From the IMG/VR virus record IMGVR_UViG_3300032038_000604, positions 1-25,176 of that record: a stretch of DNA of 25,176 nt; one strand, 5' to 3'. The position numbers and the translations under genes were made by a program. The notes under the pieces are model-generated. The model ran no database searches, had not been told where the DNA came from, and worked only from the letters and a program-made list of their open reading frames with translations. Positions 1 to 11,556 of the stretch are shown here, in pieces (positions within the stretch are counted from its first letter, which is position 1; the number at the start of each line of letters is the position of its first letter). The stretch comes from a virus.

Positions 1-995
1 AAAATGAAATGTTAGGAATATATACAAATATTGATATTAATGGAGCTTGGGATTACGCATTATACCCAATAACAACCACAATAAGTTTATCTGATAGATT
101 TATATATTTAATTAATAATGAATAGACTATTTTACAAAATCATATGTTGAACTATAAATATCCAATATATAGTGCAACTGAACAAAATTATTCCATTGGA
201 TTTTTACCAATATCAACAGAAGATACTATGTATTTTACTATTTATAGTTTTGAACCAAATAAAGATCTTTCAAATGATATTCAAGTGTTTAAATCTTCTT
301 TTCAAAATTATTTATTTAAATTAAATAATTATCCTAATATAAAAGACAATTTAATAAATAGCATTTGGGGAGAGACAGAATTAATTGATTTTTACAAAAA
401 TAATGCTTAGACAATTATTAAATATTTTTATGAAAAATTATTAAATTTTAAAATAGGAAAAATATTAGCCAGCAATGCTAATGTTAAAACCTTTAATAGC
501 AATTTTAATTTTAAAAATAAATTTAATATAAGATATAAAGATTCAAATAACAACGTGATAAAAAAATCCGTACGTTTAGGAAATGATGTTGATGCATTTT
601 AGATGTGTCTTTCTCCAATAGAAGCAAACACTGAATATACTTTTTCTTGTAAAATCCCATAGGGCTATGAAAATTCAAACCCTTCAACTTGGAACATTGG
701 TATAATTTAGGAAGATGGAAATGGCCATGGGACAATAGTTAATAATTTAACTCTTTCAAAAATAGAAAACATATTATTTTGCACTTTTACTACTGCCGCA
801 ACCACTCAAAATATTCAGATAGAAGCAACAATTATACCATCTTCAGATCATATGATAACTTGTACTGATTTTATGTTAAATATAGGAACTTCAATAGAAC
901 CATATGAATTGTTTGCACATCCTGGTAATAATGCTTTTATTGAAATTCCAAATACAGCTTTTATTCCAGCTGGCTTAACAATTAGCGGCATTTAA
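1..995 (+). CDS. C-terminal part of a large virion protein, possibly tail fibre or receptor-binding. It is 5'-partial: the frame is open from base 3, and an in-frame ATG at 9-11 could also be the start. It needs TAG read as sense.
   Basis: I translated frame 0 codon by codon from base 3 to the TAA at 993-995 and found no TAA or TGA. There are five in-frame TAGs, at 123, 408, 600, 660 and 708. The standard-code ORF track shows only the 144..410 fragment. The protein is rich in Asn, Thr and Ser with beta-rich low-complexity stretches, as in fibre or adhesin tips. Confidence 0.45.
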
Positions 996-1049: not shown

Positions 1050-1538
1050 ATGAAAATATTAACATTAGACTTATCTACTAAACAAAGCGGCTATGCAATA
1101 GGATAGAATGATAAACTGCTTTAGCATGGATGCTTTTCTGCATCAGATAAAAATGCATATAAAAGAATTATTAAAATGCGGGACTCTATAGAAAATTTAC
1201 TAAAAACTAATTAGATTTCTAAAATTATAATGGAAGAAGTCCGCCCTGAATACAACTCTCATACTAATAAGATTTTAATGTATTTGCAAGCTTCTGTGGT
1301 TCTAATGGCATATGAAATTAATCCGAAGATAGAATTTGAATTTTTTGGAGCAAGTTAGTGGAGAGCTAAACTAAAAATGCAGCAAGGGCGAGGTGTAAAA
1401 CGCGAGCAACTCAAACCGCAAGATATAAATTATGTATAGCAAAAATATGGAATAACAGTTAATGATGATTAGGCAGATGCAATTTGTATATTAGATGCCT
1501 ATTGGATAGAAGAAAATAATTAGATAAATTGGGAATAA
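1050..1538 (+). CDS. RuvC-like Holliday junction resolvase, 162 aa, TAG-recoded with 7 in-frame TAGs.
   Basis: An RBS (aagaaagagg) sits 8 nt upstream of ATG 1050. The translation begins MKILTLDLSTKQSGYAIG(TAG)NDKLL(TAG)HGCF and ends ...VNDD(TAG)ADAICILDAYW. These match the N-terminal D-x-S/G...G-Y-A and C-terminal D-x-ADA-x-x-I/A signatures of RuvC/YqgF-fold resolvases. I verified every codon from 1050 to the TAA at 1536-1538 and found no TAA or TGA. Confidence 0.7.
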
Positions 1539-1591: not shown

Positions 1592-2089
1592 TTAAATTGT
1601 TGGTTCTTCTTCTATTGGCTAAGGATTTTCTTCATTCGATATTTGATTAGAAATTTTTTCAATCCATTCTCTTAAATTTGTTGAACTTAATGGTAAATTC
1701 ATTAAATTACCTAAAACCTCTTTTAAGGTTTTATAATATATTCCTTGCTGATATATAATATTTTCAGTTAAAAAGGTTTTTCTATCTATTGCATCTTGAA
1801 CCTAAGTTTGAATTTCATTGGGTATTTGATCCAATCTATCTTGAACATTGTTCATTTTACTTATAATGGTTTTTGCGGTAGTAAATTTTTCATTCATTTC
1901 TTCAATTTTTGCGGTATTAGCGACAATTGCCGCATTTAATGTAATTAGCTGATTTTTTATATCATTTAAAGCTTCTTCTACTGTTCCATTATCATAATCA
2001 ACTAAATTTGCAGAAGTTCCTATATCAACCTCTCCTGATAATACATTGTCTTCATATACAGCAATTGTTTTTATTACTTCATTTGACAT
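1592..2089 (-). CDS. Hypothetical protein, 165 aa, with 1 in-frame TAG. It is the last gene of the - strand tail operon.
   Basis: Start ATG (rc of cat at 2087-2089), with RBS aaaggag 8 nt upstream on the - strand. The standard ORF track stops at 1802-1804, which is cta = TAG. By hand translation the frame continues to TAA at 1592-1594 with no other stop. It is acidic and Pro/Glu-rich at the C-terminus. Confidence 0.5.
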
Positions 2090-2105: not shown

Positions 2106-2360
2106 TTATACTTTTCCCAAAATAATTTTTTCAATTCCATCATTAGAAGCAGGAATTAATATATATACCATATCTCCAATTTTATATTCATTATTATTCA
2201 AACTTTTTGCGGTTATTGTTGCGCCTTGATAATTACATCTATATTGATTTAAATTATTACTAATAATTTTTGCTTTTATAGTTTTATCAAAATTAGCTTT
2301 TTTTAAAGCTGACTATATCATAATATTCATAGCCTGTAGTAGGGTATCGTTTATATCCAT
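2106..2360 (-). CDS. Hypothetical small protein, 84 aa, with 1 in-frame TAG.
   Basis: ATG (rc of cat at 2358-2360) is preceded by aggagg. The translation starts MDINDTLLQAMNIMI(TAG)SALKKANFDKT... and ends ...IILGKV, with TAA at 2106-2108. That stop abuts the RBS of the next gene. It is not in the standard-code ORF track because of the TAG at 2313-2315. Confidence 0.4.
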
Positions 2361-2409: not shown

Positions 2410-5400
2410 TTATTTTAATGCTATTTGCATAGCTTTATTAGTTAAATCTTTAAATGCCTATTCTATTTCTTTTTTACTATTAACACTTGGGAAATTAGCA
2501 GTAATAGAAACAGATTGCTCTAACATATCTTGCTGAGATTTAATTTTTTCAATTTGAGAATTTTGTTTCATTAAATCATTTAATTCGTTATTTAAATTTG
2601 CCATTCTAAATTGTAATTCATTTTGTTGCATTTCTCTTACCATTTGAATCATTTCAAGCATATTTGCGGTATCCTATTTATTTAATACAAGTTCTTTCTA
2701 ATGAAGGACTGCTAACTTACCTTGAGTAGAAGACCAATCTCCTGTATATCCACCTGTATCAAATTTAGTATATTTTCCAATCTATGTGCCATATAAATAA
2801 GAATGTTTTTTAAAATTTGTTATAATCTATTTTATTGCCTTATCTGTATAGCGGTCTTGTAATGCTGTTTTTATATTATATTCTATATCTGTTGTCCATT
2901 CTAATCCTTTTTTATTTAATAAATCTGTAATATAAGAAATCCATTCATAAATAGTTTTCTTTGCAGAAAAAGAATCATATTTTTTCCCTTCATTTGAAGA
3001 AGAAGATGTTTTTAAGGTTAATTCTCCTTTATATAATTTTTCTATTTTTTCTTTGTCAAAACCATATCCACCTTGCCCAAAAGTTTCGTCAAAATAATAT
3101 CTATTTTTTGCTTGTTCATCTGTTAAATGAACGCCTCTCTGTGCCCATCTTTGTTTAACGGCCTTTAAAGTTGCTGCGGTAGGACCTTGCTGACCTTCTC
3201 CTGGGCCCCCTCCGCCATTGCCGCCTCCTCCAGCAGCTCTGCCAGTTTGTTGTCTCTGATAAGCTGCAAGTGCTCCTGCAGCCGCATTATAAGCCTCTGC
3301 AACATTATTAACTGCATCTGCGGCAGCTTGGATTGCGGCAGTCTGTTCTTCCGTCCACATCTCTTGAAATTGTTCAACTGCTAATTTAGCTTGATTAGTT
3401 ACTTCTTCATATTTTTTTCTTAACTCCTATCCTCTACCCCTTAAATCTTCCATTGTATCATATTCATCTTTCATTCTATCAAGTAAATCATCATTATTTT
3501 TAATTAATCCACCTTGTCCATCTTCTCCTCCAATTTTAATAGCAATTTCATCATATCCATTTGCAACTGCTGCTAAATCAATTCCTGCAGACTCCTCTAA
3601 CTAATGAATTTTTCCTTGATATTCTTCATTCTTACCTTGTAACTTATCAATCGCTGTTGCCACAATATTTTCTAAACTATCTTCATTAGTAGAAAACTTT
3701 TCTATCATTTCTTGAACACCAGAGTTAAAAGTAGGAACAAATCCTTCCTATTCCATCCATTTTCTTTTTTGTTCTTCTGTCATATCTGCAAAAGCCTGTC
3801 CAACATCTCCTAATGATAATTTATAACTTTCAAATCCTGAATTTATCATATTTTGTTGTTGATACATAGATTCTTGAGATAAATTATTAATATAATCAGT
3901 ATACTCTTTTTGTACCATTTTCATTTGCTACATAATTTCGGCTTGTTTCTCAGGATTTTGATAATTTGCATTAAACTCATCATATAGCTCAGATAATTTA
4001 TTTTGAAATTCTTTTGTAGCATTATACGCCTATTCTAAATTTTTTTCATAATTTTCTTTATCAAAATTATATAAATCATTTTCTGCTTTAGCTAAATTAT
4101 TTTCTGCCTATCCAATATTATCTTGGTCTGCCACATATTGGTAAGAATAATTACCTTGAGAATCACGCTTTAATCTCATTTGAGTTTTATTATTTCTTGC
4201 CTATTCAAGAGCAATTCGAGCTTTCTCAACTTCTAATACTTTTTGTGCTCTATCTACATCATATTGTGTTAATTTATCTTTCTATTTTAAAATAGTTAAT
4301 TGTTCATTCATTACTTTCTTTAATTGTTGTTGACTTCTTAATCCTTTTGTATCATTTAAGGCTTGATTGTATAAATATTCTGTATTTTTAACTGCAAAAG
4401 CAGAATTTACTGTATCCAAATACAAATTAGCTTTTTTCTTCATTAAATCCCATTGAGTATCTAAATATTCAAAACTTTTTCCATTTGTCAGTTCTTTTTC
4501 CATATTATCAAATATTTCTGCAATAGCATTAGAATATTGGTCTTTTAAATTCTGAATAGACTATGTAATTGCAGAATTAATATCAGATACTCCATTCAAA
4601 TAAGCCTCTTTGAAACGTTTTGCGTCCTATGCTGCCTATTTTGTTCTCTCTGCATCTGCTCCATTCTATTTTGCATATTGTTCAGCTCTTTTTTCTGCCT
4701 CTTGCCACTGTCTATAATTTTCGTCATTTGTTTTCTTTAAAAAGTCTAAATTATTAACATTATTTTTATGCATTTTATCATAATATTTATCCATTGCCTT
4801 ATAGTTTTTCTATCCATAAACTAATTTTATTAAATCCAAATCATGAGATAATTGTTCTCCATACTTTTGATATGCCTATTTTTGTTTACTATACATCTAT
4901 TGAATATTATCAATAGTGTCAAGATAAGCTTGGTCGATAGCATCAAGCTATTCAGCTACTCCTTGTAATTCTTTTTGCAACTATTCTGATGCAGTTTTTG
5001 CGTCTTCCATTGCAAGTGTCATATTATCCCCATAAAGCTAATCTTTACCATTTTTACGAATATTTTCTGCGGCGTTCATAGCTCTATATAATTTTTCTGT
5101 ATTAGCACTCATCTCTCCAGATGTGTAGTAAGATTCTGCTTTTGCTAAATGTTGGTTTGTATCTCTTTCAGTTTTAGTGAATACATTTGTATAAAGCACA
5201 CTATCTCTTTCAAGAACATTTCGTTTAAAATCTTCCCATTGTCTTTTTGCCTATCCTAATTCAAGAGTTAATTTAACTTTTAAATTAAATTTTTCAACAT
5301 TAGATTCAACTAAAGCATCTAATTGTTCTTGAATTTGGTCTTCAACTGACCCCATATCTTTTATTAGTTTATCATAATTACTAATACCAGTTTTTAAATC

Positions 5401-8400
5401 ATTTAAATCAGTATTGGCTAAAGATAATGTTTTATTAATTTCGTCCATTTGCTATTTTAAGCTCTCTTTTGTGCTAATATCTGTGGACGCATTATATTGA
5501 TTAGCTAAAGTATTATATTGATTTGTTAAACTATCAACTTTATTTTGTGTGGCAGTCATTACGGACATATAATTAGATATATTTCCATCTGCCCCAAATG
5601 TAACCCCTTTTGATGCTAATTGTTGTTGTTGATATTGTTTATCAGATTTTTGAATAGCTTGTTTTGTTTTTAACGTTTGTATTTCTTGATTTAATAATTT
5701 TTGTTGATTATCTAATCCTTTTATTAAATCTTTTCCATATAATTTCTTTTGTTCTTTTTGAGCATTTTTTAATTTTCTATTTATTTCATCTAACTCTATA
5801 TTAATATCGTGATATAAATCTCTCTGGTCTTGAATTGCCTTTTTTAAGTCAACTTGAGCCTATTGTTGTTTTTTAAGCGCTTTAGCTTGTTTTTCTAATT
5901 CTTGACTACGTTGTTTCCAAAGAAAATCAGTATCTCCAGATTTTGTTGCGGTACCCTTTTGATAAGATATTTTTCCAGTTTCCTCATCTACAGATAATTG
6001 AATACGAATATCCATTCCTTCAAAAATATCTTTAATTTGTTCTGCAGAAGCCCCTGCTTGAACTAACATATCAAAAAATGGTTCGATTAATGCATCACTT
6101 AAAGAATCTCCAATTTGAGAGTTTTTAACAAGATTTCTTAAGGCTTCTGAGGATTCTTGATATGTATTATTATCAATTCCTATCTGAATTAACATATCTT
6201 GTTGAGCTAATTCTTTTAATCTATCAAACGCTTCTTTTGCTTCCTATTCTGTTCCAGTTAAAGCAATATTCATTAAATCTAAATTTTCAGTAGAACGCAA
6301 AAATGTTTCAGACAACGATTCTCCATCTAAATTTAACATATCAGAATAAGCATCTCTAATTGCAGTAACAGAAGTTAATGCTCCACTTTCAAGCTATGTC
6401 TTCCAAGTTGAAATATTTTTCGCAGCATCCATTAAACCATCATTGAATCTTAATATCTATTCTGATAATGCTTTTGCAGTACGAGCATTTGATTTCAACC
6501 CATCATTTAATTCATCTGAAGAGTCTGCTAAATCTTGAATTGTTTGTTGTAAATTATAAATATCAGTTTCTTTTAAATCAGTATCGGTAGGAAATAACGC
6601 ATCATACATTGCATTTCCCGCTTCAATACTTTCCTCTTTTAATTCTTTAATTCTATCTTCTAAGGCATCACTATTAAATTCTTTACTAAAATCAATTTTA
6701 TCATATAATTCTGTTAATTCTTTATCTTGCTCCTATGATAATTTTCCATTTTCTAAAGCTGTTTTTAATTTATTGATATTTGCAGTAGATTCGCCATTAA
6801 GATATTGCTATGAATTCTATAAAATCTATAGCATAGCTTTTTGTTCTTCTTCTTTTGACGGCAATTCTATTTTTTGCATTTCCTATGCAAGTTTATATAA
6901 TAAATCATTTGACTACAAATAATAATTCGTCCAACCCTCAGAACCATGAAAGTCCTATGGATGAGTTTTAAAACCTAATAAAGCATTTTTTAAATCTGAA
7001 TCAATTTCAACATCTGCATATTTTCCGCCTTCTTTAAATTGCTCTGCAAATTTAACTAAAGTTTCTCCATTTGCTCTTGCTGTATCTGCTTGTTGATGAG
7101 AATCAAGTTTATTAAAATATGTAAGATCGGTCTTTCCTGTAAGAGCGTCCTTTCCTGAATAAATAAAATCTCCATAATTTGTAATACTATCTTCTTTAAG
7201 CATACGAGTTTTATCATTCTATTTTTTCTTAATAATATCTTCAACTTGACCATCATTTTTATTAGAATATTCTAATAATTTATTAGCAATTGTTAAATCA
7301 TTTTCATTTTGTTTATTTATCGTACTAAAATCAGAACTCTGTAATCGTTGTCCAAGTTTTTCAAAATCTTTACGATTTCCAATAAAACTATATCCTCCAA
7401 CTCCATGTGCAAACATTTTTTGCATTTCTGGATCTAAAGTTTCAAAAGTTTTACTATCTATTTTTTTACCATTTCTGACTTTCTCTAAAATATCTGCATA
7501 TTTTTGAAATTTATCAGTGGCTGCATCTATATTTGTTTTAGTTAAATTTTCTAAATTAATTTCAGAAGTATCTTTAACATATTGATTTACTTGTTTCCAT
7601 CCATCTATGGTTTCAGGTTTTAATTCAAGAAATTTGTCTAAATGTACCTAATCTAAATTTTCTATCTCTTTTAATGTTTCACTATCAATAGTCTAACCAA
7701 ACTACTCTTCTAATTTATGAATTTTTTCTGCCTGTCTATCGTATAAAGAATAAGACTAAGAAGAATCCTTTCTAATATTTTCTCTAATAGAAGTTCTAAT
7801 ATCTTCATCTGACATAATTGAAGCAAGCTATACATTATTTTCTTTAAAAGATTTAACTGCTTGTTCCAATTTATCATTATAAGAATCTAAATCTGAAACA
7901 TCTGTAAAATCAACAGATAAAGCTGCTATTTTTGAAGCTTGTTCTTTTGCTGCGGCAACTCCTGCATCAATATCTTTCCCACCAGCAGTATTTTGCTCCC
8001 AATGATACCAAGTTTCCATACTACTAATAAGACTATCAGTTTTTCTTATATCTGAATAATTATCTAATTTTTTAATCTATGTCATTATAGTTTTTATTGT
8101 TTCTGCCTATAATGCTGCCCATTCTTTTGATCCATCTGCTTCTTTATAAATAGCATTTCCTGCATCATCAGTTCCTATTTGAACTTTATCTAAAATCCAT
8201 CTTCCGCCCTATTCTCTCAATCCATATTTTTCTGCAATAGCTTTTACATCTTTATTTGTATTATCATAATAACCTTGCCTAAATACAAAATTGTCTCCCT
8301 ATGCGGTTTGAGTGTCTCTTGCTATATTCATTGCAGTTTCTGCTTGTTCATTTGCGTTATTTAAAGCTTGATTTGCTGCCTATAATTGTGCAGCTTTCAT

Positions 8401-11400
8401 TGCCTAAGTTAAATTTCCATATTTATCAGTTAATTTATCTATCTATTCTTGTTCCAACCCATATTGATCACATAATTTCTATATTTCTGATTTTAATTCA
8501 GCTCTGGTAATATTTCCTTCTTGGTATTTATCATTTATAGCAGAAATTGCTTTATATAACTACTGTTGTTTATTTATCTATTCTGCTTCTGCTTTTTGTT
8601 CTTCTAATAAACTTTTATTAGCTTCTATACGTGCCTATTTTTTTGCTTTTTCAGCCTCTCCAATAGCAAAAGTTATGGATGCTATTGCCGTTGCAGCAAG
8701 AACGATAGCTCCAATAGGACCCAATGACGCCCATAAATCTTTTAATGCGGTTGATGCGGCGGTAGCAGCGCCTCGTAATGCTGTTAGTGCAACAGAGTGC
8801 CCAGACTATGCTGCGATTAATTTAATATTCTCTAAAGTAAGAGCTTTTCCTTGGATAGTTAATCCTTTAAAAGCAGCATTTGCTTTTGTAGCTCCAGAAA
8901 CTAACATCGGTAAAGCAGTTGCCATTAAAGTAATTGTTTTTAAAACCTTTTCTCCAGTTGAAGCATTTGAACCCCAAACATTTCCAATACTTTTTAACTG
9001 ATTAAAAGCAGCAACAACAGAAGTAATACCCCCTGCTAAATCTGTAAATCTTTTTACACTAATAGATTGTTTCATAGATTCATCTACAGAACCTTTTTGT
9101 TGTTTAAGCTATTCTAATTTAGCTTTTAATTTTTCAACCTCTTCTGGAGACATATGAAGCAATTTTAAAAATTCCTAAACCTGTTTTGATGATGCTCCAA
9201 ATATACTTTGCAAATTTAAAAATTGTTTCTTTATACTTTCAATAGAAGGGCCGCCTTCCGTTCCTAACTTAGAAAGGTCATTTTTTAATTTTTCAACTGC
9301 CTCTTGCTGTTCTTTATTTAAAACGCCTTCGCCCTTCATATTTTCTAATGACTATATAAATTTATCAACTTTTCCTTTTCCTTGGTCAAGTTGATCTTGA
9401 AGTCCTTTTACCTCTTCTTGTAATTCTTTTATTCTCCCTTTGTTCTTTCTTGCACTTTTTTTAGTTTTTTCTAAATTTGCAATATTCTCATTTAATTCAT
9501 CTATACGTTTTTTTATATTGTCTGCATTTTTTATATCTTCTGGCATTATATTAGCAATTTCGTTTTTCATTTTTTCCATATTGTTTCTAAAATTGCTAAA
9601 TTTCTATTGAATAGATTCTAATTCAGCATCAACCTGCTCTCTAAATTCTCCAGTTGAATCATTTTGGTAATTTTCATATACAGATTTATTTTCATCTTCT
9701 AATAAATCAGTTGCGTTTAAACCTTCTAATCTATTTTCAATACCTTTATCTCGTATCTCATCTATAGCTCGAAGAGTAGCATTAACATCTTTAATTTGGT
9801 TATTTAATTCCTATGCTTTCTCCAATACATCTGAAGGAATTAAATCTTTAAAATCTCTTTTCTTTTCTAAAAGACTTTGTTGATATGCTGCCCAATCTCT
9901 CTCTTCTTGCGGTCTTGATGTATCCTTTTGAGCTTCTTGCAATCCTTTTATTTTTTCAGTTAATTCTATTGCCTAAGCCTTTGCTAATCCCATATTAGAA
10001 ATGGTTACTTGAAGGCTATTTGCAATTTTATTTCCAAATACATTTAAACCAATAGCCCCAAGCATAGATAAAACTCCCACTCCACCACCAAGAGTATCTA
10101 TAAAACCAGCTACTCCATTGGTCAAAGTGGTAAATAAATCTAACAAAGGTTTAATAGAATTAGTATCTATTAAAGAGTCATAAATATTTTCAACTCCAGC
10201 TCTTAGAATTTCTAAATGAGCAGCAGTTGATTCCATATAAATATCTTGTTGCTATTGTAATGTTCCTGCTGCATTTTGAGCTGTTTCTAAGGCACTATTA
10301 TATTTATCAAAATTATCAAATAATGCAAGTAAATTATTATATTGTCTTTGACCTGCCATAGTTTGTGCTAAATAAACTTGTTGTTCACGGGACATATCTC
10401 CCCATTTAGCACCAATTTCTTCCATAACAGTACCCATATCACGAAGATTTCCAGTAGCATCAAGAACATTAATACCCATTTCCGCCATTTTCCCAGAATA
10501 TTGACCAAGAGTAGTTCCATCTTCTTCTACTCCAGCTTTAATATCTGTAATTCTTGCATATACAGTTCTTAATGCAGTACCAACACTTTCAGGAGCTTGT
10601 TTTGTAACAGATATAATAGTTGATAACTGTGCGGCAAGTTGTTCTTCTCCAACCCCCATTGCGGCGGCTGCAGATGCAACTTTACTCATACCAGTTGATA
10701 ATTCTTGTAGATCTGATGCAGTCGTTGCAGCAACAGCAGCTAATCTATCTACATAAACTTCTGCCTATTCTGCATTTACTTTATAACCATTCCAAACTGC
10801 TGTTAATTGCTCAGAAACTTCTTCAGCAGATTGCCCTGTTACATTAGCTGTTTTTAATGTAACCTAAGTTCGTGCTTCAACTTCTTTATCATTTAAACCT
10901 TGTTGTGCATAAATTAATGCTGCTTTTGTATAATCAGTTGTAGACTTTCCAAGTTCTTGTGCAACACTATTCGCTTTTTCAGCAAATCTTGTCATTTCAT
11001 CTGCTGATTTACCAGTTACAATTCTAATATCATTTAATGAAGTGTCTAAAGATTTTGTATATCCCCAAGCCTGTTGAATAGTATTTGAAAATCCATTTAT
11101 AATAGTTGAAGATAATCCCCATTTAATTGAATTTGTTAATGTTGTATACATTTTATCTAAGGTATTATGGGTTTGTTTAACTGTTTGACCCATTTTAAAT
11201 ACCTGAGATTCAATTTGTGAAAAAGTTCGAGTTCCTGTTGGACCAATTTTCTATAATTCTGTTCTTAATCCCTTTAATCCACCAGTATCTTTTAATGCTG
11301 CTTTAAATTTTTCAATATTAACAGTATTCAATTTTGGATTAAAAGCTTGTGCAATAGCTTTTTCTGCCACATTTGCTGCGGCTTTTGCATCTTTTAAAGA

Positions 11401-11556
11401 TTGTTTTAATTTATCTATATCTGTTATTCCTGTCTGAGCAGAAATTTCAGCAAGAGACATTTTTTTTACATCTTGTAAAGATTTTTTAAGCTATTCAATT
11501 TTCTTTTTATTAACATCAAAATCAATACTATATAATATTTTATTTTCCTGTGCCAT
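2410..11556 (-). CDS. Tail tape measure protein, 3048 aa, with 65 in-frame TAG codons and no in-frame TAA or TGA.
   Basis: All 16 standard-code ORF fragments on the - strand between 2458 and 11460 share one frame. I checked every codon of that frame across the interval line by line. The only stop-like codons are cta on the + strand (TAG). The first true stop is TAA at 2410-2412. The start is ATG (rc of cat 11554-11556) with RBS aaaggag. The 10252..10689 fragment (LAAQLSTIISVTKQAPESVGTALRTVYARITD...LDATGNLRDMG) is the conserved TP901/lambda-type tape-measure core. The rest is coiled-coil-rich, plus a Gly-rich segment. Confidence 0.8.

What the first reader, a model, noticed from the sequence alone, without database searches (positions are those of the whole stretch)
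2410..11556. Amber (TAG) stop codon is read as a sense codon: 3048-codon tape measure gene with 65 in-frame TAGs and no TAA or TGA
I checked every codon of one - strand frame from 11556 down to 2410. The standard-code ORF track breaks this region into 16 same-frame fragments. Each fragment ends at a + strand 'cta' (TAG). No in-frame TAA or TGA occurs until TAA at 2410. The same holds for five more genes. The 1..995 gene has 5 TAGs. RuvC has 7. The two small - strand genes have 1 each. The endolysin has 3. The intron homing endonuclease has 3. Across 16 genes, TAG is never a terminator: TAA is used 15 times and TGA once. This is the signature of an amber-suppressing phage, genetic code 15-like as known in crAss-like, Lak and other gut phages. 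Two alignments suggest the amino acid is Gln, but both rest on my recalled reference sequences. First, the third endolysin TAG aligns with a Gln of Cpl-1-type GH25 lysozymes (F-L-TAG-R-I-K-A-A-G-Y versus F-M-Q-M-I-A-D-A-G-Y). Second, RuvC positions fit. A standard-code annotation of this contig would give a shredded tail module.
Basis: partly seen in the sequence, partly recalled or inferred. Interest (0 to 1): 0.85.

Follow-up and report, generated by a model that had tools for sequence, protein, structure and literature searches.

The report
Phage amber codon read as glutamate
This rumen phage reads the stop codon TAG as an amino acid in its late genes, which is a known trick, but comparison with relatives says the amino acid is glutamate rather than the glutamine assumed for all such phages so far.

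Summary
The minus-strand frame 11556 to 2410 is one 3048-codon tape measure gene with 65 in-frame TAG codons, no TGA and one terminal TAA. Six other late, lysis or mobile genes carry 21 more TAGs, and eleven early-type genes carry none. Reading TAG as a sense codon is therefore supported.

The proposed amino acid, Gln (code 15), is not supported. I compared this contig with about 230 related loci held as DNA. Its TAG positions behave like the rare Glu codon GAG. Glu beats Gln by 13 to 16 natural-log likelihood units. Window RuvC codon 141 is Glu in 41 of 41 homologues that lack TAG there. In relatives, TAG even replaces the catalytic Glu of RuvC.

The same pipeline returns Gln for a sister subclade and Trp for TGA-recoded relatives, so it can tell these cases apart. 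A second, independent set of loci gave the same split.

Glu-type relatives carry a tRNA(CUA) with a C1-G72 pair and mostly A73. Gln-type phages carry one with U1 and G73. No suppressor tRNA was found in the window or in the 76.7 kb closest relative. No peptide data exist. I found no report of TAG-to-Glu in phages.

The parts
2410..11556 (-). Tape measure protein gene: 3048 codons, 65 in-frame TAG, terminal TAA.
   Evidence: Frame check. RBS and start. PF10145 at residues 196-402, E = 6e-29. Stop counts in the three frames. TAG positions. At TAG sites the majority residue in homologues is most often E (10), then D (8).
1050..1538 (+). RuvC-like Holliday junction resolvase gene with 7 in-frame TAGs at residues 19, 25, 55, 103, 130, 141 and 158.
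   Evidence: PF02075. TAG positions. Column table.
1470..1472 (+). TAG at RuvC residue 141, in the motif N-D-D-TAG-A-D-A.
   Evidence: Sequence read directly. All 41 homologues with a sense codon here have GAA or GAG. E147 is invariant in 10 TAG-free homologues.
1521..1523 (+). TAG at RuvC residue 158.
   Evidence: Sequence. The aligned residue is Glu in 31 of 37 homologues.
3..995 (+). 3' part of a 428-residue structural (tail-region) gene, with 5 in-frame TAGs.
   Evidence: No Pfam match.
1592..2089 (-). Small gene downstream of the tape measure gene on the minus strand, with 2 in-frame TAGs.
2106..2360 (-). Small gene immediately downstream of the tape measure gene, with 1 in-frame TAG.
17969..19564 (+). 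Endolysin (GH25 plus CHAP plus a C-terminal repeat region) with 3 in-frame TAGs at residues 71, 76 and 123.
   Evidence: PF01183 and PF05257. All three TAGs are conserved in the 92%-identical relative, whose fourth TAG aligns with CAA here. PDB alignments.
22926..23840 (+). GIY-YIG homing endonuclease gene with 3 in-frame TAGs, inside a 1.2 kb insertion that splits the topoisomerase subunit A gene.
   Evidence: PF01541. Insertion boundaries against the uninterrupted gene of L092.
11800..17978 (+). TAG-free block compatible with the standard code: MVP-like protein, a 117-aa ORF, RNA ligase, a 98-aa ORF, AAA_33 kinase, metallophosphoesterase and r1t-type holin.
19717..22742 (+). TAG-free block: RNase H, GyrB-like topoisomerase subunit, and the first part of the topoisomerase A subunit.
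23974..25176 (+). TAG-free second part of the topoisomerase A subunit. It runs off the window, which ends about 14 bases before the contig end.

Best explanation
The window is the last 25 kb of a 39.5 kb metagenome contig. The contig comes from a large, low-GC tailed phage of rumen Clostridia, probably of Ruminococcus.

SHOWN:
- The phage's late genes (tail, tape measure, endolysin), its RuvC and a homing endonuclease contain in-frame TAG codons that must be translated.
- Its early and DNA-metabolism genes avoid TAG, so they can be read by the unmodified host.
- In this phage and its subclade, TAG positions align with glutamate, including strictly conserved and catalytic glutamates.

INFERRED:
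- TAG is decoded mainly as Glu, not Gln.
- A phage tRNA with anticodon CUA does the decoding. It sits in the phage's tRNA array and belongs to a distinct class with a C1-G72 first pair, usually A73, and a D region as long as in tRNA-Glu.
- One possible route: host GluRS loads this tRNA with Glu. The tRNA lacks the U1-A72 pair that bacterial GatCAB requires, so the Glu is not converted to Gln.
- Sister phages whose TAG aligns with Gln carry a different suppressor, with U1, G73 and a shorter D region.
For: 1. TAG is sense. A 3048-codon frame has 65 TAG and no TAA or TGA, against 160 and 337 in the other two frames. A single PF10145 domain spans fragments. There are 86 TAGs in 7 genes and 0 in 11. 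Fourteen further genes upstream on the same contig show the same pattern.

2. Glu, tested on this contig.
- Self-calibrated likelihood over 67 TAG sites: Glu is best, with Gln at -15.6 and Lys at -19.7 natural-log units.
- The family-alignment version over 35 sites gives Glu over Gln by 13.3.
- Codon control: TAG partners are 26% Glu. The rare Glu codon GAG gives 28% Glu, and CAG gives 33% Gln.

3. Conserved sites.
- Window RuvC residue 141 aligns with Glu in 41 of 41 homologues that have a sense codon there. Residue 158 aligns with Glu in 31 of 37.
- The first E of M-E-E-V-R-P aligns with the residue 66 Glu of the I-E-Q-V-F motif in E. coli RuvC (1hjr).
- That codon is TAG in 5 relatives and Glu in all 39 others. 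Examples are L015 'KIVM**VRP*Y' and L049 'KIIM*EVRP'.
- Among family columns at least 80% conserved that contain a TAG, 26 are Glu and 6 are Gln.

4. Controls in the same pipeline.
- Sister loci L048, L047, L026, L031 and L035 return Gln by 3.8 to 13.3 units. Their nearest-neighbour partners are Gln in 71 of 76 cases.
- TGA-recoded loci return Trp, by up to 22 units.

5. Independent replicate on 80 metagenome loci from another genome region.
- L182 Glu by 21.4, L184 by 17.5, and L165 (the closest relative) by 13.6.
- Human-gut contigs L204 and L210 return Gln by 16.0 and 14.7.

6. tRNA.
- Eight Glu-type loci carry a tRNA(CUA). Seven have C1-G72 and one has G1.U72. Seven have A73. The D region is 16-21 nt. 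Two of them fold as cloverleaves.
- The Gln-type locus L212 has U1, G73 and an encoded CCA. It is the same class as one suppressor of phage phAss-1, which is published as TAG-to-Gln.
- Bacterial GatCAB needs U1-A72 and rejects the extra D-loop base of tRNA-Glu (PMC2811023).
Against: - There are no peptide data. Everything rests on alignments.
- No CUA tRNA is present in the window, in the 34 kb of its contig that I could read, or anywhere in the 76.7 kb closest relative. That relative's array holds only Gln, Ser, Ser, Glu, Lys, Arg, His and Cys.
- In close pairs, Gln codons are the second commonest partner of TAG, at about 13% in Glu-type loci. For this contig the nearest-partner count is 3 Glu, 2 Gln and 1 Ser. 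One TAG in the relative's endolysin aligns with CAA here.
- Six conserved-Gln columns contain TAG, some in loci typed as Glu.
- An amino-acid budget test was noisy and, if anything, leaned towards Gln.
- Sequence similarity does not tie the suppressor tRNAs to tRNA-Glu. Their best identity to any isotype is 0.61-0.76.
- Which synthetase charges the suppressor is unknown.
- The host assignment rests only on co-binning of related contigs.
Confidence: 0.7

Rival explanations
1. Classical code 15. TAG is read as glutamine, as in crAss-like, Lak and Phassvirus phages. The Glu alignments would then reflect frequent, tolerated Glu-to-Gln replacements.
For: - All published phage cases are TAG-to-Gln.
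- Gln codons are the second most frequent partner of TAG in close pairs.
- One endolysin TAG aligns with CAA.
- Two of the four PDB homologues have Gln at the second endolysin TAG.
- The amino-acid budget test leaned towards Gln.
Against: - Gln loses by 13 to 21 natural-log units in this contig and its relatives. The same method finds Gln in the sister subclade.
- TAG sits at invariant Glu positions, including the RuvC catalytic Glu. From my own knowledge, E66Q abolishes cleavage in E. coli RuvC.
- True Gln codons (CAG) show 33% Gln partners, while TAG shows 5%.
- C-to-T transitions from CAG can explain the excess of Gln partners even if TAG means Glu.
Confidence: 0.12
2. Ambiguous decoding. 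TAG is read as a mixture of Glu and Gln, and perhaps Lys. This could arise from more than one suppressor tRNA, or from one tRNA that is glutamylated and only partly amidated.
For: - The partner spectrum of TAG in Glu-type loci is less pure than that of a normal codon. It is about 60% Glu and 13% Gln, against 52-79% synonymous partners for GAG.
- Some loci typed as Glu have TAG in conserved-Gln columns, for example L009 and L017.
- phAss-1 carries three different CUA tRNAs.
Against: - TAG at a catalytic Glu in several relatives argues that Glu is inserted most of the time.
- Each Glu-type locus shows one CUA tRNA in its array.
- Alignment noise in the long, low-complexity tape measure family accounts for several of the odd columns.
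Confidence: 0.13
3. TAG is a real stop. The fragments would then be separate genes, pseudogenes or assembly errors.
For: Under the standard code the region splits into 16 same-frame ORFs. No suppressor tRNA was found on this contig.
Against: - There are 65 TAGs but no TAA or TGA in 3048 codons of a 30% GC genome.
- One Pfam domain spans fragments.
- TAG positions are conserved in relatives: 3 of 3 in the endolysin.
- Hundreds of related contigs from independent samples show the same pattern.
Confidence: 0.01

Closest known systems
Amber-recoded gut phages using genetic code 15 (crAss-like, Lak and the Garnet and Topaz clades of Borges et al.).
   Same: - In-frame TAG in structural and lysis genes and none in early genes.
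- TAA-dominated termination.
- A phage tRNA(CUA) in relatives.
- A host that uses the standard code.
   Different: In those phages TAG aligns with Gln, and Gln was confirmed by metaproteomics in crAss-like phages (PMC9523058). Borges et al. state that they observed only TAG-to-Gln and TGA-to-Trp. Here TAG aligns with Glu.
Phassvirus group (phAss-1 OQ749652, BK046881, BK025033; Babkin et al. 2023, PMC10607447).
   Same: - Tape measure protein of 3149-3209 aa.
- TAG recoding of about 40 ORFs.
- tRNA arrays that include tRNA-Sup-CTA.
- The same distant cultured relatives (Enterococcus phage EF1, Enterocloster phage PMBT24) appear in my searches.
   Different: - Only 25-37% protein identity to the window's genes, and 44.5% GC against 30%.
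- Different gene order.
- Its authors assign Gln.
- One of its suppressors belongs to the U1/G73 class that I find in a Gln-type relative, not the C1-G72/A73 class.
Ciliate nuclear codes with UAG (or UAR) read as Glu, in peritrichs and one uncultured ciliate.
   Same: The same codon-to-amino-acid change (PMC11687900).
   Different: - Those are eukaryotic nuclear genomes in which the whole genome is recoded and eRF1 is altered.
- Here a virus recodes only its late genes inside a standard-code bacterium.
TGA-to-Trp (code 4) recoded phages.
   Same: Members of the same phage family use this code. Their RuvC TGA codons align with TGG (113 of about 200 partners), and the likelihood method returns Trp.
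   Different: A different stop codon and a different amino acid. The window itself has no in-frame TGA.

Membership tests
Stop-codon-recoded phage (TAG read as sense) | Long conserved genes are interrupted only by in-frame TAG, never by TAA or TGA. | tested here: met
Stop-codon-recoded phage (TAG read as sense) | Recoding is concentrated in late or lytic genes, and early genes remain compatible with the standard code. | tested here: met
   86 TAGs in tail, tape measure, RuvC, endolysin and endonuclease genes. None in 11 replication, RNA-repair or holin ORFs.
Stop-codon-recoded phage (TAG read as sense) | The phage genome encodes a suppressor tRNA with anticodon CUA. | tested here: inconclusive
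   Absent from the window, from 34 kb of its contig, and from the 76.7 kb closest relative. Present in eight more distant relatives of the same Glu-type subclade. The window's genome is incomplete.
Genetic code 15 (TAG = Gln) | TAG positions align with glutamine in homologues. | tested here: not met
   Glu is best and Gln trails by 13 to 16 natural-log units. Gln makes up 5% of aligned residues, against 33% at true Gln codons. The method returns Gln for the sister subclade.
Genetic code 15 (TAG = Gln) | The suppressor tRNA has tRNA-Gln-like identity features (U1-A72 or a weak 1-72 pair, and G73). | tested here: not met
   Suppressors of Glu-type relatives have C1-G72 and mostly A73. The U1/G73 class occurs in the Gln-type locus L212 and in phAss-1. 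The window's own suppressor is unknown.
Genetic code 15 (TAG = Gln) | Peptides show Gln at TAG positions. | not testable with these tools
   Needs metaproteomics.
Phage tape measure protein | TMP core domain (PF10145), very long helical protein, located in the tail module. | tested here: met
   PF10145 at E = 6e-29. 3048 aa. Flanked by tail-region genes. Homologous to the phAss-1 TMP region.
Phassvirus genus (Babkin 2023) | At least about 80% nucleotide identity and shared gene order with phAss-1. | tested here: not met
   No megablast match to any phage record. 25-37% protein identity and a different gene order. It is a distant relative within the wider group only.
RuvC resolvase | An acidic catalytic tetrad that includes the Glu equivalent to E. 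coli E66. | tested here: met
   PF02075. A profile alignment to 1hjr places the first E of MEEVRP on E66. The window has GAA there. Five relatives have TAG there.

The most novel reading that the evidence does not exclude
A clade of rumen Clostridia phages has reassigned TAG to glutamate. This would be a stop-codon meaning not reported for any virus or bacterium. The clade uses a distinct class of suppressor tRNA (C1-G72, A73). Its closest sister clades use TAG = Gln, TGA = Trp or the standard code. One phage family would then hold four genetic codes, and the switch between Glu and Gln would be set by tRNA identity elements.
Probability: 0.65. Interest if true: 0.85.

Novelty: new variant of a known kind. 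Interest (0 to 1): 0.75.

Why it matters
Current gene callers and databases translate every amber-recoded phage with table 15. The public protein collection already stores this phage's proteins with Gln at all TAG positions, including at catalytic glutamates. If TAG means Glu here, thousands of deposited protein sequences carry a systematic error of about 2% of residues.

It would also show that phage code change is not limited to the two cases thought to be intrinsically easy, Gln and Trp.

The family offers a natural experiment. Related phages differ in TAG meaning and in suppressor tRNA acceptor features. That makes it directly testable how tRNA identity sets the outcome, whether through GluRS and GatCAB or through GlnRS. 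It may also supply new orthogonal tRNAs for code engineering.

Tried and rejected
- Megablast of the window against 50,697 phage records found nothing.
- ARAGORN (default, intron mode, lowered threshold) and Rfam found no tRNA in the window or in about 2.3 Mb of loci around RuvC, the MVP-like gene, topoisomerase A, a 181-aa protein and a 445-aa protein. The tRNA arrays appeared only after I walked to the left end of the closest relative.
- An amino-acid budget test compared Glu or Gln deficits in TAG-containing homologues with TAG-free ones. It was dominated by composition differences between clades and is inconclusive.
- PDB alignments of the endolysin TAGs give mixed residues and settle nothing. 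A single-sequence PDB search with RuvC found no RuvC, so a profile was needed.
- Nearest-neighbour identity between suppressor tRNAs and other phage tRNAs does not assign an isotype.
- Rfam finds no group I intron in the insertion that splits the topoisomerase gene.
- The pooled tally of TAG partners looked mixed at first: Gln led above 90% identity and Glu below. Splitting by locus resolved this into two subclades.
- I considered Lys and Asp as the TAG meaning. They trail Glu by about 20 and 27 natural-log units.
It worked through the database's own protein id.

Full report
**Observation**

The minus-strand frame from 11556 down to 2410 starts with ATG behind a strong ribosome-binding site (aaaggagaaaaaagg). 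It runs for 3048 codons with 65 TAG, no TGA and one TAA at the very end. The other two frames of that strand contain 160 and 337 TAA+TGA codons over the same stretch. By my arithmetic, a chance run without either stop has a probability near 1e-70.

Read through, the protein carries the tape-measure core domain PF10145 at residues 196-402 (E = 6e-29).

In-frame TAGs also occur in these genes:
- 3..995: 5
- RuvC, 1050..1538: 7
- 1592..2089: 2
- 2106..2360: 1
- GH25+CHAP endolysin, 17969..19564: 3
- GIY-YIG endonuclease, 22926..23840: 3

Eleven ORFs have none. They are an MVP-like protein, RNA ligase, AAA_33 kinase, metallophosphoesterase, r1t holin, RNase H, GyrB-like and GyrA-like topoisomerase subunits, and two small ORFs. 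No ORF ends in TAG.

**Source and relatives**

The window is the last 25.2 kb of ENA contig ERZ27256903:k141_2707871, which is 39,503 nt long. That collection's gene caller had already produced a 3048-residue product. The 9 kb upstream of the window holds eleven more genes, nine of them with in-frame TAGs.

RuvC has 345 database homologues on contigs of up to 146 kb.

The closest relative I could read is IMG/VR contig 3300031853_000023, which is the same record as Ga0326514_10000037 (76,719 nt). Its MVP-like gene is 95% identical in DNA, its endolysin is 92% identical, and its tape measure protein is only 40% identical.

Contigs with a 91%-identical endolysin C-terminus are binned with rumen Ruminococcus MAGs. 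Weaker matches are binned with Clostridia and Acutalibacteraceae MAGs. This is a hint about the host, not proof.

The wider group is the one described around phage phAss-1, which has a 3149-aa tape measure protein, 41 TAG-interrupted ORFs and three tRNA-Sup-CTA genes (PMC10607447). phAss-1 is only 25-37% identical in protein and has 44.5% GC.

**Which amino acid**

I collected about 230 related loci as DNA, so that TAG codons can be seen directly rather than through someone's translation.

RuvC homologues fall into three classes: in-frame TAG, in-frame TGA, or neither.
- TGA columns align with TGG, as expected for code 4.
- TAG columns align overwhelmingly with GAA or GAG: 369 Glu against 36 Gln among about 1010 aligned residues.
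- Window RuvC residue 141 (N-D-D-TAG-A-D-A, 1470..1472) is Glu in all 41 homologues that have a sense codon there. Residue 158 is Glu in 31 of 37.
- A profile of TAG-free homologues aligns the first E of M-E-E-V-R-P with the residue 66 Glu of the I-E-Q-V-F motif in E. coli RuvC (1hjr).
- In five relatives that codon is TAG, for example L015 'KIVM**VRP*Y' and L049 'KIIM*EVRP'. All 39 others have Glu.
- From established knowledge, E66 is one of the four catalytic acidic residues of RuvC, and E66Q is inactive.

For the window's contig as a whole I used a self-calibrated likelihood. The residues aligned to each TAG site are scored against the profile seen at the contig's own sense codons.
- Over 67 sites, Glu is best. 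Gln trails by 15.6, Lys by 19.7 and Asp by 26.8 natural-log units.
- As a codon-level control, TAG behaves like the rare Glu codon GAG. TAG has 26% Glu partners and GAG 28%. CAG gives 33% Gln, AAG 38% Lys and TAC 58% Tyr.
- A second implementation on 59 aligned gene families gives Glu over Gln by 13.3 for this contig. It gives 9 to 17 for relatives L017, L021, L020, L016, L008 and L009.
- Among columns at least 80% conserved that contain a TAG, 26 are Glu and 6 are Gln.

**Controls**

The same pipeline returns Gln for a sister subclade (L048, L047, L026, L031, L035) by 3.8 to 13.3 units. The nearest non-TAG partner of their TAGs is Gln in 71 of 76 cases. It returns Trp for TGA in the TGA-recoded loci, by up to 22 units. 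The method therefore separates Glu from Gln and is not biased towards Glu.

An independent replicate used metagenome contigs anchored on a different gene and mostly different proteins. It gave the same split:
- Glu for L182 (21.4 units over 76 sites), L184 (17.5), L170, L177 and the closest relative L165 (13.6).
- Gln for human-gut contigs L204 (16.0), L210 (14.7), L212 and others.

**Evidence that cuts the other way**

- In close pairs, Gln codons are the second commonest partner of TAG. In this contig's own nearest-partner comparison the count is 3 Glu, 2 Gln and 1 Ser.
- One TAG in the relative's endolysin aligns with CAA here.
- A single C-to-T transition turns CAG into TAG, which can explain part of this. 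Mixed decoding cannot be excluded.
- The amino-acid budget test was uninformative.

**Mechanism**

No tRNA is present in the window, in the readable 34 kb of its contig, or in most related loci.

The closest relative has a small tRNA array at 3977-5651: Gln(UUG), Ser, Ser, Glu(UUC), Lys, Arg, His and Cys. It has no CUA anticodon anywhere in its 76.7 kb. That contig is open at one end.

More distant Glu-type relatives have arrays of 9 to 24 tRNAs, each with one tRNA(CUA). The eight suppressors share these features:
- a C1-G72 first pair (G1.U72 in one of them);
- A73 in seven of the eight;
- a D region of 16-21 nt;
- a variable loop of 4-5 nt;
- no encoded CCA;
- a cloverleaf fold in the two that I folded.

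The Gln-type locus L212 has a different suppressor, with a U1 mismatch pair, G73 and an encoded CCA. It is the same class as one of phAss-1's suppressors. In these phages tRNA-Gln has U1-A72 or A1-U72 and a 15-nt D region. tRNA-Glu has a D region of 16-18 nt.

Bacterial GatCAB converts Glu-tRNA to Gln-tRNA only with a U1-A72 pair. It rejects the extra D-loop base of tRNA-Glu (PMC2811023).

My inference is that a CUA tRNA lacking U1-A72 would stay as Glu-tRNA if GluRS glutamylates it. Which enzyme charges it, and whether the host has GlnRS, are untested. Sequence similarity does not assign the suppressors to any isotype.

**Comparison with what is known**

Late-gene TAG recoding with a phage suppressor tRNA is well described (Ivanova 2014, Borges 2021/22, Peters 2022, Babkin 2023). 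Up to that point the finding is a new member of a known kind.

All those papers assign Gln. Borges et al. state that they observed only TAG-to-Gln and TGA-to-Trp. The Lak study noted occasional alignment with Glu but concluded Gln. Six full-text searches found no claim of TAG-to-Glu in a phage or bacterium. UAG-to-Glu is known in some ciliate nuclear codes.

I therefore rate this as a new variant of a known kind. It rests on comparative evidence only.

**Verdict**

- The sense-codon reading is essentially certain.
- Glu rather than Gln is likely (about 0.7).
- The tRNA-based mechanism is a reasoned hypothesis.

Noticed in passing
window 11800-14295 (+): An 831-aa, TAG-free protein with a major vault protein shoulder domain (PF11978, E = 3e-20) and a vault repeat. 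It diverges from the tape measure gene. Its only matches among deposited phages are 38%-identical regions in huge phages LR756500 to LR756503 (462-735 kb).
   Followed up: partly
window 14945-17677 (+): RNA ligase (PF09414 plus the PHA02142 OB fold), an AAA_33 kinase and a metallophosphoesterase lie close together, separated only by a small 98-aa ORF. The set looks like an RNA or tRNA repair module. All three are TAG-free.
   Followed up: no
window 22739-23973: The GyrA/ParC-like topoisomerase gene is split by a 1.2 kb insertion that carries the GIY-YIG endonuclease. Pfam profile positions 1-144 lie before it and 152-431 after it. The gene is uninterrupted in relative L092. Rfam finds no group I intron, and the 3' boundary does not obviously end in G. 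Whether this is an intron or a split gene is unresolved.
   Followed up: partly
RuvC loci L008-L087 and family alignments: One phage family contains members with in-frame TAG read as Glu, TAG read as Gln and TGA read as Trp, and members with no recoding.
   Followed up: yes
related loci, gene families 1, 15, 32, 51 and 85: In-frame TGA aligns with strictly conserved Cys columns in several families. This includes loci that otherwise use TAG recoding or the standard code. Possible explanations are selenocysteine, read-through or sequencing and alignment artefacts. I did not examine this.
   Followed up: no
window 10239: The window has A where the ENA record of the same contig has G. This is the only difference in 11.5 kb of overlap. 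It changes a tape measure codon from CAT (His) to TAT (Tyr).
   Followed up: no
L166 3977-4050 (same as L165 958-1031): A tRNA-Gln(UUG) with an aberrant T loop (GGCAGCA) and an encoded CCA. Rfam finds it at 45 bits and ARAGORN misses it. It heads the reduced tRNA array of the closest relative.
   Followed up: partly
L165 220-270, 820-870 and 1450-1500: A nearly identical promoter-like sequence (TTGA(A/T)TTTTTAAAAAATTTTTGTTATAATATATAT) recurs in front of successive units of the tRNA array and its small ORFs.
   Followed up: no
L096 1285-2817 and 5510-6412; L092 14728-15630: ORFs with very high TAG density downstream of the topoisomerase genes. One has 20 TAGs in 510 codons, with a methyltransferase-like S/CPPF motif. 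Another has 12 TAGs in 300 codons, with a membrane anchor plus coiled coil plus GIY-YIG domain. Recoding in this clade is therefore not limited to structural genes.
   Followed up: no
L165 2662-4176 and its homologues L166-L245: A conserved 505-aa protein sits immediately after the tRNA array in more than 500 metagenome contigs. I did not test it against Pfam.
   Followed up: no
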